Positions 17,304 through 27,525 of a DNA stretch of 27,695 nucleotides are shown piece by piece. The DNA is from a virus. The notes under the pieces were generated by a model, which saw nothing but the letters and a program-made list of their open reading frames with translations, had not been told where the DNA came from and ran no database searches. Position 1 is the first letter of the stretch. Each line of letters begins with the position of its first letter. The position numbers were made by a program, and so were the translations under genes. Location of the stretch: the IMG/VR virus record IMGVR_UViG_3300045988_163776, positions 128,001 to 155,695 of that record; one strand, given 5' to 3'.

Positions 17304-17678
17304 ATGATATATGTAAATGGTAAAGTCTTTATTTGTGATACAGAAGATGACGTAAAAAATCTTCCAACAAATCGGACTCCTGGATGTGTGGCTAAAGTAG
17401 CTAGCACTTCTAATATATATAAACTAAATGCCTCTGGCAAATGGATTCTACAAACCTCTAGTGGAGGAGGAGGCTCTTCAGAAGATATCCATATTAATAA
17501 TGCTTATCTCGATGAAGATGAAAATCTTATACTTGAATTTAATACAAGTTATAAAGAACCTTTAAAGGTTAATATCGGTTCTATTAATGAACCGGAAATC
17601 TTTTTATTACAAGAAGAAATAAAGAAAAACAAAGTTTAGGACGTTAGTGAAGATTTCATTAATAGTTTGTTCAGTTAA
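17304..17678 (+). CDS. small late protein; TAG at 17637-17639 likely read through to TAA 17676-17678
   Basis: aaaggag RBS. The track ORF ends at TAG 17639. The 12-codon read-through extension QDVSEDFINSLFS matches the C-terminus EEYINSLFTASSN of the next gene. Confidence 0.5.
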
Positions 17679-17693
17679 GGAGGATAAAACAAG

Positions 17694-18389
17694 ATGCCAG
17701 AAATTACAACAAAAGAATATGTTTCTAAAGAACGTTTTGCTCAATATGACACAAAAATAAAAGCATTAATTAAGGATATTGTTGCTAAAAGTGCTTATGA
17801 TGATAGCTCTATTAAGACACAAATTAATGCAAACAAAACAGCTATAGATACTTTAAATGGTGATGCTAGCCAAGTTGGCTCAGTAGCGAAACAAGTTGCT
17901 GATGCAGTAGCTTCTATTGTTGCAAATGCTCCAGAAGCATATGATACATTAGTAGAAATTTCAGATTGGATTAGCTCACATAGTAATGATGCTTCAGCCA
18001 TGAATACTAGTATTTTAGCAAATACTAACGCTATTAATGCATTAAAGACATTAGTAGGTACGCTTCCAGATGGTGCAGCAGCCAAAACGATTATTGAATA
18101 TATTGATTCTAAAGTTACTGGAGTAAAAGATTGGACTGCAGATATAAATACAGCTAAAACAGAAGCTATTTCAACAGCTGCAGGAGACGCAACTACAAAA
18201 GCAGATAAAGCATTAGCAAATGCAAAAGCATACGCAGATGGCCTTGCAACTAATTATGCAACTGCCGCACAGGGTGCAAAAGCAGATACCGCAGTTCAGC
18301 CTGCAGATTTAGGCACAGGGGCTTATATGAACTTAACAGAAGTAACAGAAGAATACATTAATAGTTTATTTACTGCATCATCAAATTAA
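17694..18389 (+). CDS. Ala/Thr-rich structural protein (fibre/decoration-like)
   Basis: Intact 231-aa ORF after taaggagga. Low-complexity Ala-rich repeats (AKTEAISTAAGDATTKADKALANAKAYADGLATNYATAAQGAKADTAVQ). TAA stop then a terminator. Confidence 0.6.
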   Translation: MPEITTKEYVSKERFAQYDTKIKALIKDIVAKSAYDDSSIKTQINANKTAIDTLNGDASQVGSVAKQVADAVASIVANAPEAYDTLVEISDWISSHSNDASAMNTSILANTNAINALKTLVGTLPDGAAAKTIIEYIDSKVTGVKDWTADINTAKTEAISTAAGDATTKADKALANAKAYADGLATNYATAAQGAKADTAVQPADLGTGAYMNLTEVTEEYINSLFTASSN

Positions 18390-18417
18390 TTTTTTTAAAG
18401 GGGTTTATAATTTAGAC
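18388..18417 (+). terminator. rho-independent terminator
   Basis: aggggt-ttataatttag-acccc followed by T5. Confidence 0.7.
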
Positions 18418-18448
18418 CCCTTTTTATCTTTAAGAAAGGAGGCTAAAT

Positions 18449-24414: not shown

Positions 24415-24522
24415 ATGAAATTATATATTTACAAGTGGGACAATGATACTTTTATAGGAAGCAATAAAGGCTATATGGTAAAATATGAAGAAAAGCAGAG
24501 GTTTATAGATGCTATCTCTTAA
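24415..24522 (+). CDS. small peptide (35 aa) overlapping the start of the radical-SAM gene; candidate precursor or partner peptide
   Basis: aaggag at 24399-24404. MKLYIYKWDNDTFIGSNKGYMVKYEEKQRFIDAIS. TAA at 24520-24522, 12 nt inside the rSAM ORF in another frame. Confidence 0.3.
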   Translation: MKLYIYKWDNDTFIGSNKGYMVKYEEKQRFIDAIS

Positions 24523-25759
24523 AGAATATAAAGAAGAATACCATTGTCCAATAATCGCTTGCTTAAACATAACAAATCAATGTAATCTTAAATGTCGCTA
24601 TTGCTTTGTAAATCAGAATCCAGAACGCATGTCTTTTGAAACTGCTACAACAGCAGTAACTTATTTATATAAGAACCTAACTGCGCGACGGGAAAAAACT
24701 GGGAATCCGCACCTAAAAGGCACTATTAATTTTTTTGGTGGTGAGCCACTTTTGGAATGGTCTTTAATAAAACGATTAACAGAATGGATAGAAGAAAAGT
24801 ATGCTAATTGTTTCAATTTAGGCATTACAACTAATGGTACACTATTGAACAAACAAATTATAGATTTTTTATATGAACATAAAATAATACCTTTGTTATC
24901 AATGGATGGGGATAGAGAAACACAAGAATATAATAGACCTTGCAAACTTAGAGGTAGTAGTTTTGATTTGGTTAAAACGCATTTATCTTATCTGCTGGAA
25001 AAATTCCCTAATACAGTATTTCGCATGACTATATATGAGGATACTTGTGATAAATTATTTGATAATATTATATTTGCAGAACAACAAGGCTTTAAGTATT
25101 TCTATGCAACTCCAGATAGTAGACATAATTTTTCTAAAGAAAATTTAAAAAAATTAAAAATAGAATTAGAAAAATTTTATAGTTACTTCACTATTAGTCT
25201 AATAAATGGCATTAAACCAATAGAGAGTAGCTTTATAAGAGATATGTTCCTAGGAGTATTGCGTGAGCCTAGTCTTAAGGTTAATGAACTAGACCAATTA
25301 ATACCAAGAGATATAATGAGATGTGGCCTTGGTACTGTAAGCATTAGTATTAGTCCAGATGGTAGTATATATGGGTGCCAAGAACAAGTAACTAATAATA
25401 AAGAAAATAATCTTTTTTATTTAGGGGATATATATAAAGGAATCGCGGGCGACCACCATATCAAGCTTTTAAGTGAATACAGATCGCTTTCCGCAATCAC
25501 AAGTGAATCCGCAAGTTTATGCGAAGATTGTGGGTATCGTAAATTATGTTATCAAGTTCAATGTCCTTCAATGGCAAAACAAAGATTTGATAATTTTTTT
25601 ATATTGCCAGAGACAATGTGCTTCTGGAATCGAACTTTATATGATTTAACAAAACAAGTTTTATCAATATATAATGAAAATATAGAACGATATTTAACAG
25701 AAATAATTGAGGAGGAAGAGGAATATGAGTTATATTGTAGGAGGAACAACTTATCCTGA
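24509..25759 (+). CDS. radical SAM enzyme with a C-terminal SPASM/twitch-type Cys-rich domain
   Basis: CNLKCRYCF (the CxxxCxxC 4Fe-4S/SAM motif) near the N-terminus. C-terminal CGLG..C..CEDCGYRKLCYQVQCPS auxiliary-cluster motifs. Intact 416-aa ORF without TAG. Confidence 0.75.
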   Translation: MLSLKEYKEEYHCPIIACLNITNQCNLKCRYCFVNQNPERMSFETATTAVTYLYKNLTARREKTGNPHLKGTINFFGGEPLLEWSLIKRLTEWIEEKYANCFNLGITTNGTLLNKQIIDFLYEHKIIPLLSMDGDRETQEYNRPCKLRGSSFDLVKTHLSYLLEKFPNTVFRMTIYEDTCDKLFDNIIFAEQQGFKYFYATPDSRHNFSKENLKKLKIELEKFYSYFTISLINGIKPIESSFIRDMFLGVLREPSLKVNELDQLIPRDIMRCGLGTVSISISPDGSIYGCQEQVTNNKENNLFYLGDIYKGIAGDHHIKLLSEYRSLSAITSESASLCEDCGYRKLCYQVQCPSMAKQRFDNFFILPETMCFWNRTLYDLTKQVLSIYNENIERYLTEIIEEEEEYELYCRRNNLS

Positions 25760-26342
25760 TCCAGAAATAGCTTGTTATATGACAGATTTAGAAGATTTAC
25801 AAAATATCTATGCAAATAAAATAAACAATTATTTTGCAACAGATAAAATAGCAAGCAAATATTATGATTGGGTAAATAATAAAGAACATATAGAACCAAC
25901 ATATGCTTATACATCAGAGGAAATTATTGATATATTATGCTTTAATGAAGATAACAATGGTATCGTGTCAGTATTGCCATTATTTGTATACCTTACCATA
26001 AAAACGAAAAATTGGTCTGTAAAAATAGAAAATATTACAGATGAAATTATTGCTTATACAGAAGCTAATGTAAATGGCTTTAATAATGATTTCCTTAATT
26101 TAATAAAAGAGCAAGTGTTAGAACAATATCCAGGTTTATGTAAGTTTGTTGAGACCGTAGGCGTAAAAGAAGATAATAATACTCAAGAGGGTATTTCTAT
26201 TAATGACAATTTTCTTGATAAATTTGCTTACTATTGGAAAAATGATTGTATGGTAAATATAGAGTTTCCAAGTAAATCTGCTAATGTTGATTTAACTTCT
26301 GGATTTACAGAAGAAGAAAAAAAACGAGCAGAACAAGTTTAG
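25725..26342 (+). CDS. hypothetical protein, 205 aa
   Basis: Strong RBS gaggaggaagagg before ATG 25725. The track ORF begins at 25707. Overlaps the rSAM 3' end. Confidence 0.55.
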   Translation: MSYIVGGTTYPDPEIACYMTDLEDLQNIYANKINNYFATDKIASKYYDWVNNKEHIEPTYAYTSEEIIDILCFNEDNNGIVSVLPLFVYLTIKTKNWSVKIENITDEIIAYTEANVNGFNNDFLNLIKEQVLEQYPGLCKFVETVGVKEDNNTQEGISINDNFLDKFAYYWKNDCMVNIEFPSKSANVDLTSGFTEEEKKRAEQV

Positions 26343-26355
26343 GAGTTGCTAAAAA

Positions 26356-27525
26356 ATGAATCAGATAAGTGATAAAAAAGACTGCCGAGGATGCATGAGC
26401 TTTTGTATGCAAGGTAAATAGTTGGCAGTAGCTGGACATGATGAAAGTCATACCGGTTGGAAAAAATGGAAAGATTTAACTTCTGGTAAGGATGGAACTA
26501 TTATTTGTAGTAAAGATGGATTATCTGCTACCAATCAAACAGACTTAATAAATTTTATCAGAGATGTTTATAAAACTGGAGTGTATAATCCAGAAAAAGG
26601 AAATATGTTTGATGAAGTTCCAAAAAATTTATCACACGTTTATGATTCTCCTTCCTCTAAAAGTGTTCCAAATTCATTAAAAGTTGCAGAAGAAGGAGTT
26701 TCAAGCGATGCTGTTATATATGCAAAACATTATAATAATTTTTTAGAAGCTTTAGCATCTAGTCAAACCAACCCTATTTCAGTAGATAGCAAAGGAGAAC
26801 CTTTAAAAGATAAAAATAAAAATCCTATTAATAATAACGCTACTGAATCTGGCCCAGTCGCTGGTTGGTGGACTAATGCAGATCCTATTGTCGTATCTGG
26901 ATAGAAATATCCGAATAGCGATTTAAGCTTAATAAAAGCTGACTTATATAAAAGTTTATATGAAAAAGCAAGTAAATTAATGTATCATCCTCATCAATGT
27001 TGTATTTGCAATGTATATGAGGGTGGAGATTGGTTAGAAATAGTTAAAGATATTGGCACAGCCTGTTATAATTATGGGATTGTATATAATAACCATGCAG
27101 GAGGTGCTGTTGATACTGCAAAAGGCTATCATGTAACTTTAAGTCGTTTTGACTGTTCTGGATACGTAGGAGCTTGCTTAGCTGTTTTTAATGCTGTTGA
27201 AAATGGTAGTAGTAGCACTAACATTTCTGGATATGGAGGAACTTCAGACGCTTACTTAGAAGATGGTTCTGGGATTCCCTCAAGCTTAAAAAAATATTTT
27301 TCTTTTTCAAGTTCACTTCCTTCTAAACCTGGTTCTATTTTAGTAAGATGGGCAAAATCTGGAGTAGACCCTTTTGGCAATAGAACAGAACACGTTGAGA
27401 TACGAGGAGAAAATGGTATTTGGAGTGGTGGAGGTCGTGGAGGCCCCTCTGGAAATCTTATGATGGGTAAAATGGATACTGGTGGCACTACCTGTAATTT
27501 TGGTTGGGAATATACAGGAGGATAA
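26356..27525 (+). CDS. NlpC/P60-family peptidase-domain protein (putative endolysin/cell-wall hydrolase); 2 in-frame TAG codons
   Basis: ATG 26356 after aggag. Track ORFs 26422-26904 and 26980-27525 share the frame (mod 3 = 1) and are joined by TAG 26902-26904, with another TAG at 26419. C-terminal FDCSGYVGACLAVF...TEHVEIRG matches the NlpC/P60 Cys...His catalytic arrangement. Confidence 0.55.

What the first reader, a model, noticed from the sequence alone, without database searches (positions are those of the whole stretch)
17304..27525. Amber (TAG) codons are used as sense codons throughout the late structural/lysis block but not in the early block
When TAG is treated as sense, the fragmented track ORFs in 17.3-27.5 kb coalesce into long, biologically coherent genes: an ~810-aa fibre protein with 9 TAGs, a collagen-like G-X-Y protein with 3 TAGs that all sit in Y positions, a papain-like peptidase plus SLH domain with 6 TAGs, and an NlpC/P60 protein with 2 TAGs. 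Context points to Gln: (i) GP* and GI* triplets sit in a protein whose dominant triplet is GPQ, (ii) the SLH motif reads ITRA*L, and (iii) the GIY-YIG gene reads IND-IN*-KIYIGKT. Early genes (147-7001) contain no internal TAG and mostly end in TGA or TAA. This is the lifestyle-linked stop-codon recoding (translation table 15-like) described for some crAss-like and Lak phages, here in a phage whose SLH-domain lysin suggests a Firmicute host.
Basis: partly seen in the sequence, partly recalled or inferred. Interest (0 to 1): 0.9.

Follow-up and report, generated by a model that had tools for sequence, protein, structure and literature searches.

The report
Phage reads TAG as glutamine
This phage segment reads the TAG stop codon as glutamine in its tail-fibre, lysis and homing-endonuclease genes, using its own suppressor tRNA; the strategy is already described for gut phages, but the tRNA carries an unusual, conserved extra arm.

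Summary
Treating TAG as sense raises long-ORF coverage of 17304-27695 from 0.70 to 0.90. TGA-sense gives no gain. There are 27 in-frame TAGs in 3,170 downstream codons and none in 2,119 upstream codons (Fisher p≈1e-6), with equal off-frame TAG density. Pfam and PHROG domains run across the TAGs.

TAG most likely means Gln. Gln ranks first in three independent tallies built only from sense-codon-encoded residues. The papain oxyanion-hole Gln is a TAG here and CAA/CAG in relatives.

The decoder is a tRNA(CUA) at 16887-16974, directly upstream of the block. An HDV-like "theta"-type ribozyme fold (16975-17024) and a terminator follow it.

Corrections:
- Recoding is not confined to the block. Two homing-endonuclease genes (9492-10130, 15039-16001) and a 72-aa gene are recoded too.
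- The C1/SLH gene has 5 TAGs, not 6.
- The NlpC/P60 label is unsupported.
- Two "fragments" are split by G8 tracts, not by TAG.
- "Early" is unverified.

This is a new member of the known code-15-type recoding. The less expected part is the suppressor: a Gln-like tRNA with a 19-nt extra hairpin, found in 41 IMG/VR phage contigs, and I found no description of it.

The parts
93..7001 (+). Upstream block of 7 genes with no in-frame TAG. Stops: TGA x4, TAA x2, TAG x1. Functions unknown, so 'early' is an assumption.
   Evidence: 0 TAG in 2,119 codons; only an M28-like peptidase and PHROGs of unknown function
6665..6667 (+). TAG ending gene 5291-6667. It is either a stop or a read-through codon giving an 11-residue acidic tail (QEEEEEEYYGG) up to TAA 6698-6700. 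RBS GAGGAGG at 6675-6681 and the next ATG at 6690 overlap this stretch.
   Evidence: the closest homologue L015 ends ...CYVEEEL*, and the TAG aligns with an E there, so the question stays open
9492..10130 (+). GIY-YIG/NUMOD1 homing endonuclease with 1 in-frame TAG (9528), TTG start after AAGGAG, inside the tRNA island
   Evidence: GIY-YIG 2.7e-10 spanning the TAG; start region
11200..11275 (+). Ordinary tRNA-Gln(UUG) of the phage. Its acceptor stem and D-arm resemble those of the suppressor.
12509..12565 (+). HDV-like (theta-type) ribozyme fold starting directly after the discriminator of tRNA-Pro(UGG)
   Evidence: GGCTTTA|GA|AAGATAAT|ACC|TTCACGT|GGT|TAAAGCT|GTTTTTA|CTAAA|ATTATCTT; conserved in L107 and L108
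12719..12937 (+). 72-aa gene with 1 in-frame TAG (12812)
   Evidence: called as a 72-aa gene in relative L107
15039..16001 (+). Cys-repeat homing endonuclease with 10 in-frame TAGs, the most heavily recoded gene. Absent from relative L108, so it is a mobile insertion.
   Evidence: (PHROG 374 at 1e-38; PHROG 559 over residues 10-306)
16788..16816 (+). Sigma-70-like promoter match (TTGAAA, 17 nt spacer with TG, TATAAT; 11 of 12) upstream of the suppressor tRNA
   Evidence: Consensus match only: 4 such sites found against 3.0 expected in shuffles
16887..16974 (+). Amber-suppressor tRNA(CUA), 88 nt. Gln-like acceptor end (U1:A72, G2:C71, G3:C70, G73, G10), type-I D-arm, plus a 19-nt extra arm forming a hairpin.
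   Evidence: Rfam tRNA 57.7 bits; 16 of 25 pairs compensatory
16975..17024 (+). HDV-like (theta-type) ribozyme fold one nucleotide after the suppressor's discriminator. P1 16975-80/17002-07 with G1.U, P2 16983-88/17019-24, P3 16989-91/16999-17001, J4/2 CUAA with candidate catalytic C17015.
   Evidence: (weak CPEB3/HDV-like hit 16964-17025, 15.7 bits, E = 4.6)
17089..17121 (+). Intrinsic-terminator-like hairpin (9 bp, 5 GC) with a T-run, between the suppressor unit and the first downstream gene
17304..17678 (+). Gene with 1 TAG (17637). The C-terminal motif EDFINSLFS after the TAG matches the C-terminus EEYINSLFT of the next gene.
17694..18389 (+). TAG-free gene within the downstream block
18449..20881 (+). 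810-aa protein with 9 in-frame TAGs. It is fibre-like by context only, with no family hit.
   Evidence: (26% identity to a 1257-aa L010 protein)
20938..21540 (+). Collagen-like G-X-Y protein with 3 TAGs, all in Y positions. Position 21427 is CAG in L107.
21694..22225 (+). Paralogue A of a receptor-binding-like gene. Conserved N-terminal 33 aa, G8 tract at 21793-21800, C-terminal part in the +1 frame with 4 TAGs.
22308..22752 (+). Paralogue B. N-terminal 34 aa, G8 tract at 22410-22417, C-terminal part in the +1 frame with 1 TAG. In frame (G10, 148 aa) in L107 and L108.
22813..23280 (+). Paralogue C (no G tract) with 1 TAG (23263), which is GAA or AAA in relatives
23312..24241 (+). Peptidase_C1 + SLH protein with 5 TAGs, one at the oxyanion-hole Gln. 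Homologues sit in lysis cassettes of standard-code phages.
24509..25759 (+). Radical SAM/SPASM maturase-like gene, TAG-free from its likely ATG
25725..26372 (+). Gene with 1 TAG (26340)
26356..27525 (+). 389-aa Cys-rich protein with 2 TAGs. The NlpC/P60 label is not supported.

Best explanation
The window is part of a large (roughly 125-150 kb) low-GC phage genome that uses two coding regimes.

Genes upstream of a 10-kb tRNA island carry no in-frame TAG. Genes downstream of it, plus two homing endonucleases and one small gene inside the island, use TAG as a glutamine codon. TAG makes up about 25% of Gln-type codons downstream and 55% in the endonucleases.

Decoding depends on a phage tRNA with anticodon CUA, the last gene of the island. 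It appears to form its own unit: a promoter-like site, the tRNA, a self-cleaving HDV-like (theta-type) ribozyme that would trim the 3' trailer, and a terminator. A host enzyme most likely charges the tRNA with Gln, either GlnRS or the GluRS/GatCAB route.

Until the suppressor accumulates, host RF1 terminates at these TAGs. Full-length fibre, lysis and endonuclease proteins would therefore appear only late.

Shown here: the in-frame TAGs, their conservation, domain continuity, the Gln assignment by comparison, and the existence and conservation of the tRNA.
Inferred: charging, ribozyme activity, promoter use and temporal gating.
For: - Coding gain is specific to TAG.
- Strong TAG asymmetry with equal off-frame density.
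- The chance of an 810-codon frame free of TAA/TGA is about 1e-28.
- Domains span TAG sites.
- 57 in-frame TAG:TAG codon matches, summed over three relatives at 94-96% identity.
- Gln ranks first in three non-circular tallies, and 6 of 16 exchange positions involve CAA/CAG.
- The papain Gln19-equivalent site is TAG here and CAA/CAG/Q elsewhere.
- tRNA(CUA) scores 57.7 bits against Rfam tRNA, and 16 of 25 pairs are compensatory across lineages.
- The tRNA's acceptor end matches the phage's own tRNA-Gln(UUG). Its 5' half gives BLAST hits only to annotated tRNA-Gln genes.
- In the family of 21 unique sequences, the 1:72 pair is never G:C and G2:C71 holds in 20 of 21.
- The HDV-like fold appears exactly at two tRNA 3' ends and nowhere else with a catalytic C. 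P1, P2 and P3 covary between the two copies.
- The layout matches published theta ribozymes next to tRNA-Sup (PMC10879173).
- The recoding model is published (10.1101/2021.08.26.457843; PMC9523058; PMC10607447).
Against: - No expression, proteomic or aminoacylation data exist for this phage.
- The suppressor has a long extra arm and G73, which are the determinants SerRS uses (PMC7609411), so Ser charging cannot be excluded from structure alone.
- Glu scores second in the residue tallies.
- The 'early' status of the upstream block is unverified.
- The TAG at 6665 may be a read-through codon, so the upstream block may not be strictly TAG-free.
- The ribozyme fold deviates from the published motif: it has one P1.1 pair instead of CC/GG. 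It scores only 15.7 bits against an HDV-like Rfam model, and the L108 copy has G1:C instead of G1.U.
- The promoter match is near chance level.
- The window is only part of the genome, so another suppressor or a synthetase elsewhere is possible.
Confidence: 0.85

Rival explanations
1. TAG is decoded as serine, or ambiguously as Ser and Gln, because the suppressor carries the SerRS determinants: a long variable arm and G73.
For: The tRNA has a 19-nt extra arm, G73 and G2:C71. SerRS ignores the anticodon and recognises the long arm plus G73 (PMC7609411). One TCG<->TAG exchange was seen.
Against: - Ser scores 0.06, against 0.88 for Gln, at the endonuclease sites. It is also low in the other tallies.
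- The catalytic oxyanion-hole Gln of the C1 peptidase is a TAG.
- The D-arm is type I (4 bp, 8-nt loop), and 1:72 is U:A rather than the G:C typical of tRNA-Ser.
- 9 of 21 family members have A73.
- The arm stem has only 4-5 bp.
Confidence: 0.05
2. TAG is decoded as glutamate, lysine or pyrrolysine. One route would be charging by a non-discriminating GluRS without transamidation. Another would be a Pyl system, as ARAGORN's 'tRNA-Pyl' label suggests.
For: Glu and Lys rank second and third in the tallies. ARAGORN labels any CTA anticodon as Pyl. Many Firmicutes make Gln-tRNA through Glu-tRNA (my own knowledge).
Against: - Gln ranks first in all tallies. Conserved columns are Q: LTGxRFGK has Q in 24 of about 50 sense-coded homologues against 3 E, and the papain site is invariant Q.
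- The tRNA lacks the tRNA-Pyl hallmarks of a 3-nt variable loop, a 6-bp anticodon stem and G1:C72 (PMC7609411).
- No pyl genes are in the window.
Confidence: 0.04
3. TAG stays mainly a stop. The sites act as leaky attenuators, so most translation ends there and only a small read-through fraction gives full-length protein.
For: Host RF1 is presumably present. Several TAGs lie near C-termini where truncation would be harmless (17637, 23263, 26340, 6665). No phage release-factor gene is seen in the window.
Against: - 9-10 TAGs in one gene would multiply to negligible yield unless suppression were efficient.
- TAGs occupy catalytic and conserved core positions.
- A dedicated, conserved suppressor tRNA is encoded.
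- Proteomics of other code-15 phages shows Gln at TAG (PMC9523058).
Confidence: 0.05
4. The in-frame TAGs are assembly errors or mark decaying pseudogenes.
For: The source is presumably a metagenome assembly. Two genes are indeed out of frame at G8 tracts.
Against: - Only TAG interrupts the frames, never TAA or TGA.
- The same TAGs recur in three independently assembled relatives.
- Domains continue across them.
Confidence: 0.01

Closest known systems
Code-15-type stop-codon recoding (TAG to Gln) in gut phages: crAss-like, Lak and the Firmicutes-infecting clades of Borges et al. (10.1101/2021.08.26.457843). Validated by proteomics in crAss-like phages (PMC9523058).
   Same: Low-GC phage. In-frame TAG concentrated in structural and lysis genes, and in a homing endonuclease. 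Phage-encoded tRNA(CUA) placed just upstream of the recoded unit. TAG aligns with Gln. The proposed role is to delay late and lytic proteins.
   Different: This is a different phage lineage: no nucleotide match in INPHARED, and an upstream 547-aa protein has no tblastn hit there. The suppressor has a long extra arm. No release factor or synthetase is seen in the window. Nothing has been tested experimentally.
Phage phAss-1 / proposed Phassvirus (OQ749652; PMC10607447), NCBI 'Caudoviricetes code 15 clade'
   Same: A 136-kb gut phage with a tRNA island, TAG in 41 ORFs, tRNA-Sup-CTA genes and no own synthetase; a Clostridia host was guessed. One of its suppressors (62445-62532) is an 88-nt annotated tRNA-Sup-CTA of the same long-arm class, 91 nt with its encoded CCA.
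   Different: No detectable protein similarity to the window's upstream genes. phAss-1 pairs the long-arm tRNA with an adjacent canonical 72-nt Gln-like Sup-CTA. Only the long-arm one is seen in this window. My scanner found no HDV-like fold after the phAss-1 suppressors.
Theta ribozymes: minimal HDV-like ribozymes adjacent to phage tRNAs, of which 20% are tRNA-Sup(CUA) (Kienbeck et al. 2024, PMC10879173)
   Same: Same order of elements as the published examples: P1, J1/2, P2, P3 (ACC or GCC), L3 (U-YY-ACGU), P3', P1' ending in U, a short L4, J4/2 CUAA with a leading C, and P2'. G1 lies within 1 nt of the tRNA 3' end. The tRNA lacks an encoded CCA. The phage is recoded.
   Different: P1.1 has one Watson-Crick pair (C:G or U:A) instead of CC/GG, and L3 ends in ACGU rather than ACGC. 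The sequences are not in the parts of the paper's supplements that are held. Activity is untested.
Genomes with blocks of different codes (Mgcod, 10.1101/2022.06.29.495998)
   Same: One genome contains a TAG-free block and a TAG-sense block.
   Different: The boundary is not clean here. Recoded mobile genes sit among TAG-free genes inside the tRNA island.
Hypermutable poly-G tracts in phage receptor-binding genes (Campylobacter phages; recalled from memory, with related papers listed)
   Same: Homopolymeric G tracts near the 5' end of tandem paralogous receptor-binding-like genes. Tract length differs between near-identical phages and switches the frame.
   Different: Different phage and host group. 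Only consensus assemblies were compared, with no read-level heterogeneity.

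Membership tests
Code-15-type (TAG to Gln) recoded phage | In-frame TAG in otherwise intact genes, with a gain in coding density specific to TAG-as-sense | tested here: met
   Coverage rises from 0.70 to 0.90 for TAG and shows no gain for TGA. 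38 in-frame TAGs and no TAA/TGA. P of about 1e-28 for the 810-codon frame.
Code-15-type (TAG to Gln) recoded phage | TAG positions correspond to Gln in homologues | tested here: met
   Gln ranks first in three tallies of sense-codon residues. 6 of 16 exchange positions involve CAA/CAG. The papain Gln19-equivalent site agrees.
Code-15-type (TAG to Gln) recoded phage | Phage-encoded suppressor tRNA with anticodon CUA | tested here: met
   16887-16974; conserved in L107 and L108.
Code-15-type (TAG to Gln) recoded phage | Recoding biased towards late structural and lysis genes, with early or replication genes in standard code | tested here: inconclusive
   The asymmetry is strong. Homologues of the C1/SLH gene sit in lysis cassettes. 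But the TAG-free block has no assignable function, and no capsid, portal or terminase gene is in the window.
Code-15-type (TAG to Gln) recoded phage | Gln found at TAG positions in the proteins | not testable with these tools
   Needs mass spectrometry.
tRNA-Gln (bacterial identity set, from established knowledge of E. coli GlnRS) | Weak or unpaired 1:72, G2:C71, G3:C70, G73, G10, U35 | tested here: met
   U1:A72, G2:C71, G3:C70, G73, G10 and U35 are all present. In the family, 1:72 is never G:C and G2:C71 holds in 20 of 21.
tRNA-Gln (bacterial identity set, from established knowledge of E. coli GlnRS) | Class I architecture with a 4-5 nt variable loop | tested here: not met
   The variable region is 19 nt and forms a hairpin.
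tRNA-Ser (class II) | Long variable arm and G73 (PMC7609411), with G1:C72 and a class II D-arm (3-bp stem, large loop) | tested here: not met
   The arm and G73 are present. But 1:72 is U:A and the D-arm is 4 bp with an 8-nt loop, unlike the phage's own tRNA-Ser(GCU) at 14484-14574.
tRNA-Pyl | 3-nt variable loop, 6-bp anticodon stem, G1:C72 (PMC7609411) | tested here: not met
   19-nt variable region, 5-bp anticodon stem and U1:A72. ARAGORN's label follows the anticodon only.
Theta (minimal HDV-like) ribozyme | Nested P1/P2/P3 double-pseudoknot layout, G1.U at the cleavage site, and C as the first base of J4/2 | tested here: met
   Two loci, 12509-12565 and 16975-17024. All three helices covary between them. 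Shuffles give about 0.3 hits per window.
Theta (minimal HDV-like) ribozyme | Cleavage site within 5 nt of a tRNA 3' end | tested here: met
   G1 is at +1 after A73 of tRNA-Pro, and at +2 after G73 of tRNA-Sup.
Theta (minimal HDV-like) ribozyme | Two-pair P1.1 (CC in L3 with GG after P1'), as in the published examples | tested here: not met
   Only one Watson-Crick pair is possible: C:G in the Pro copy and U:A in the Sup copy.
Theta (minimal HDV-like) ribozyme | Self-cleavage, abolished by mutating the catalytic C to U | not testable with these tools
   Needs an in vitro assay.
Papain-like cysteine peptidase (Peptidase_C1) | Pfam match plus the Gln-Cys-His-Asn active-site set | tested here: met
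   PF00112 at 2.2e-08. C in SETCVACS, H in GYHAMTIVGW, N in LNSWG, with the oxyanion Gln encoded by TAG 23459.
NlpC/P60 | Profile match to the family | tested here: not met
   No Pfam hit up to E = 10, no NCBIfam hit and no PDB hit. Only the motif FDCSGYV.

The most novel reading that the evidence does not exclude
The suppressor may represent an undescribed class of phage tRNA. It has a glutamine-type, class I body with a weak 1:72 pair, G2:C71 and a CUA anticodon, and it has acquired a structured extra arm.

The arm is a 4-5 bp hairpin with a CUG triloop. Its fourth pair is only ever U.G or C.A, which are isosteric wobbles, and never a Watson-Crick pair. That pattern suggests a specific recognition surface.

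Possible roles include a handle for a phage or host factor, for maturation after ribozyme cleavage, for charging, or for competition with RF1. It could also be an anti-determinant that keeps the suppressor orthogonal to host nucleases or synthetases.

The class occurs in at least 41 IMG/VR contigs of 8-396 kb (most above 80 kb), in phAss-1, and in published theta-ribozyme tables, where it was auto-labelled 'Gln CTG pseudo'. It is often found next to a canonical short Sup-CTA (15 of 41 loci).
Probability: 0.35. Interest if true: 0.65.

Novelty: new member of a known kind. Interest (0 to 1): 0.4.

Why it matters
The recoding is an established phage strategy, so this window mainly adds another lineage, probably one that infects a Firmicute. 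It also shows that standard-code gene calling shatters its fibre, lysis and endonuclease genes.

Three details could be useful beyond annotation:
1. The only suppressor seen in the window is a Gln-like tRNA with a conserved extra hairpin that recurs across many large phages. If that arm is a recognition element, it bears on how phages get a stop-decoding tRNA charged and used in a standard-code host, and it could inspire orthogonal suppressor designs.
2. The suppressor appears to be one compact unit with a theta-type ribozyme and a terminator. That makes the proposed switch testable with a single short construct.
3. Public protein databases already translate these TAGs as Q. Homologue alignments are therefore circular evidence for the code unless the DNA is checked.

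Tried and rejected
- Database proteins as evidence for Gln. Rejected as circular. P0001 has Q at every TAG, and P0003 and the NCBI-sourced P0062 do not translate under table 11. I replaced them with DNA-checked loci.
- My first count of 55 of 78 endonuclease homologues with TAG. It included TAGs upstream of the start codons. The corrected figure is 30 of 78 inside the aligned region.
- My initial claim that TAG 6665 is a bona fide stop. Withdrawn after the closest homologue showed an acidic tail aligned past it.
- TGA or TAA recoding. TGA gives no gain, and the TAA gain is the usual AT-rich artefact on both strands.
- Pyrrolysine. The tRNA architecture is wrong.
- NlpC/P60 for 26356-27525. No profile support.
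- Nucleotide or protein similarity to cultured or deposited phages. None for the late block or for an upstream protein. Only the ATPase matches, at about 42% to Enterococcus phages.
- Exact search for the suppressor's anticodon arm in IMG/VR. No hit.
- Looking for the two ribozyme sequences and the tRNA arm in the theta-ribozyme paper's supplements. Not found, but the stored files are cut.
- HDV-like folds after the 40 other long-arm suppressors, and after those of L017, L022 and phAss-1. None found with my descriptor.
- Rfam at gathering thresholds finds only tRNAs in the window.

Full report
**What is in the window.** All recognisable genes lie on the + strand of a 31%-GC sequence. There are three regions:
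- Seven genes at 93-7001.
- A roughly 10-kb island (7.3-17.0 kb) with at least 21 tRNA or tRNA-like genes and a few ORFs.
- A dense gene block from 17304 to the end.

**Checking the observation.** With TAG as sense, ORFs of at least 100 codons cover 0.90 of 17304-27695, against 0.70 under table 11. TGA-sense changes nothing. TAA-sense inflates ORFs on both strands, as expected for AT-rich DNA. The fragments fuse into:
- an 810-aa protein with 9 TAGs;
- a collagen-like protein with 3 TAGs, all in Y positions;
- a Peptidase_C1+SLH protein with 5 TAGs;
- several smaller genes.

The 810-codon frame has no TAA or TGA, although its off-frames carry 0.077 per codon, which gives a chance of about 1e-28. 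Counts per class are 0 TAG in 2,119 upstream codons, 0 in 912 for ordinary island genes, 11 in 530 for two homing endonucleases, and 27 in 3,170 downstream. Off-frame TAG density is similar throughout, and the Fisher test gives p = 1.2e-6. Pfam and PHROG matches run across TAG sites. Three independently assembled relatives at 94-96% identity give 57 in-frame TAG:TAG codon matches, summed over the three pairwise comparisons.

**Corrections.**
- The C1/SLH gene has 5 TAGs, not 6.
- The NlpC/P60 label has no profile support.
- Recoded genes also occur at 9492-10130 (GIY-YIG), 12719-12937 and 15039-16001. The last has 10 TAGs and is missing from relative L108, so it is mobile.
- The upstream block cannot be shown to be 'early'.
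- Gene 5291-6667 ends at TAG 6665. The closest homologue has an acidic tail aligned beyond that point, so stop and read-through cannot be told apart.

**Which amino acid.** Database homologues were unusable at face value. The collection translates TAG as Q, and even an NCBI-sourced homologue did not translate under table 11. I therefore used only residues encoded by ordinary sense codons in DNA I could read.

| Tally | Top BLOSUM62 scores |
|---|---|
| 10 endonuclease TAG sites vs 78 homologues from bacterial-genome contigs | Q 0.88, E 0.69, K 0.48, S 0.06 |
| Late-gene sites vs four loci | Q 1.52, E 0.82 |
| Reverse direction (window residues opposite TAGs elsewhere) | Q 0.68, K 0.66 |

Among close relatives, TAG exchanges with another codon at 16 positions, and six of those involve CAA or CAG. 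The strongest single site is the papain oxyanion-hole glutamine. It is TAG here, CAA in L009, CAG in L108, and Q in the standard-code homologues L012 and L013 and in every aligned homologue except the two most distant. Gln is the best-supported assignment. Ser, Glu and Lys/Pyl are kept as low-probability rivals.

**The decoder.** Its acceptor stem (U1:A72, G2:C71, G3:C70), G73, G10 and D-arm resemble the phage's own tRNA-Gln(UUG). Its 5' half gives BLAST hits only to annotated tRNA-Gln genes.

It also has a 19-nt variable region, which tRNA-Gln never has. The same design occurs in a distant relative (L017), in L022, and in phage phAss-1, where it sits beside a canonical 72-nt Sup-CTA. A pattern scan found it in 41 IMG/VR contigs, giving 21 unique sequences of 88-91 nt. 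In these the 1:72 pair is never G:C, G2:C71 holds in 20 of 21, and the discriminator is G or A.

The cloverleaf is supported by compensatory changes in 16 of 25 pairs. The extra arm is a hairpin with this pattern:
- G:C to C:G covariation at one pair;
- an invariant C:G pair;
- a pair that is only ever U.G or C.A;
- an invariant U:A closing pair;
- a CUG loop.

I found no paper describing this arm. One example appears in the theta-ribozyme supplement, auto-labelled 'Gln CTG pseudo'.

**Processing and the transcription unit.** A weak Rfam hit to an HDV-like family (CPEB3, 15.7 bits) lies at 16964-17025. I wrote a descriptor for minimal HDV-like folds. It finds exactly two catalytic-C loci in the window, both strands included, and each starts 1-2 nt after a tRNA: 12509-12565 after tRNA-Pro(UGG) and 16975-17024 after the suppressor. 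P1, P2 and P3 covary between the two copies, while L3 (UUYACGU) and J4/2 (CUAA) are shared. Local shuffles give about 0.3 hits per window, none expected at tRNA ends.

The layout matches the published theta ribozymes, which are strongly associated with tRNA-Sup in code-15 phages (PMC10879173). P1.1 is weaker here, and activity is untested. A promoter-like site (16788-16816) and a terminator-like hairpin (17089-17111) flank the unit. These are consensus matches only.

**Mechanism.** This is the published model (10.1101/2021.08.26.457843). TAG-free genes are translated from the start. The suppressor is then made, trimmed and charged. Only after that are TAG-bearing fibre, lysis and endonuclease genes translated through. 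The sequence-level steps are shown here. Charging, cleavage and timing are inferred.

**Comparison and novelty.** This is a new member of a known kind. It is unrelated at sequence level to deposited phages apart from an ATPase, and it is not a close relative of phAss-1. The long-arm suppressor class is the part most likely to be new.

**Seen in passing.** Two tandem paralogous genes are interrupted by identical TGACC-G8-T tracts, the only G or C runs of 7 or more in the window. Tract lengths differ among near-identical relatives: A is 8/9/8, and B is 8/10/10 and in frame at G10. A relative's contig ends inside one tract. This looks like phase-variable receptor-binding genes.

Noticed in passing
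window 21793-21800 and 22410-22417 (genes 21694-22225 and 22308-22752): Two identical TGACC-G8-T tracts, the only G/C homopolymers of 7 or more in the window. Each sits about 33 codons into a tandem paralogous receptor-binding-like gene and puts the C-terminal part in the +1 frame. G7 or G10 would restore the frame. Relatives at 94-96% identity have G9 and G8 (tract A) and G10 and G10 (tract B, in frame, 148-aa product). Contig L009 ends inside tract B. This suggests hypermutable phase variation of host-recognition genes, although homopolymer assembly error is not excluded.
   Followed up: partly
window 12509-12565: A second HDV-like (theta-type) ribozyme fold lies directly after tRNA-Pro(UGG). 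It is conserved in L107 and L108, and its helices covary with the copy after the suppressor tRNA.
   Followed up: partly
window 11037-11109, 13082-13156, 7309-7378, 14589-14673: Odd tRNA-like genes in the island. One has an 8-nt anticodon loop (ARAGORN anticodon 'gatt'). One has a 6-nt loop ('aa'), conserved in L107 and L108. One is a degenerate Gln-like tRNA. One is a long-arm tRNA with a GUA (Tyr) anticodon that only Rfam detects (32 bits).
   Followed up: no
window 13747-13851: Sub-threshold match to the Y RNA-like YrlA family (31.5 bits against a gathering score of 69, E = 0.001), inside the tRNA island.
   Followed up: no
window 24509-25759 with neighbours 25725-26372 and 26356-27525: A radical SAM/SPASM peptide-maturase-like gene (best NCBIfam match PapB ranthipeptide maturase, 1.7e-46, below cutoff) sits next to the lysin, followed by two proteins of unknown function, one of them Cys-rich. 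The trio is syntenic in relatives L009, L010, L107 and L108.
   Followed up: no
window 15039-16001 versus L108:2604-2860; window 16725-16858 versus L108:3577-4544: Presence/absence polymorphisms between near-identical phages. The 10-TAG homing endonuclease is missing from L108. L108 has a 967-nt insertion with a 219-aa gene between tRNA-Ile(UAU) and the suppressor.
   Followed up: partly
loci L027-L106 (GTDB genome contigs): 30 of 78 homologues of the endonuclease found in 'bacterial or archaeal MAG' contigs carry in-frame TAGs within the aligned region, 25 of them two or more. Many are on 100-175 kb contigs with several copies. These are probably TAG-recoded phage contigs binned into MAGs.
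   Followed up: partly
protein database hits P0001, P0003, P0062, P0166: The public protein collection translates in-frame TAG as Q for these phage contigs, and the source label (even NCBI) does not guarantee standard code. Alignments of such proteins are circular evidence for TAG as Gln.
   Followed up: yes
L024:12445-12610 (phAss-1, OQ749652 62445-62610): phAss-1 carries a long-arm Sup-CTA (annotated 88 nt; 91 nt with CCA) and a canonical 72-nt Gln-like Sup-CTA side by side. 15 of 41 IMG/VR loci with the long-arm tRNA also hold a 73-75-nt CTA tRNA. This suggests the two types are not redundant.
   Followed up: partly
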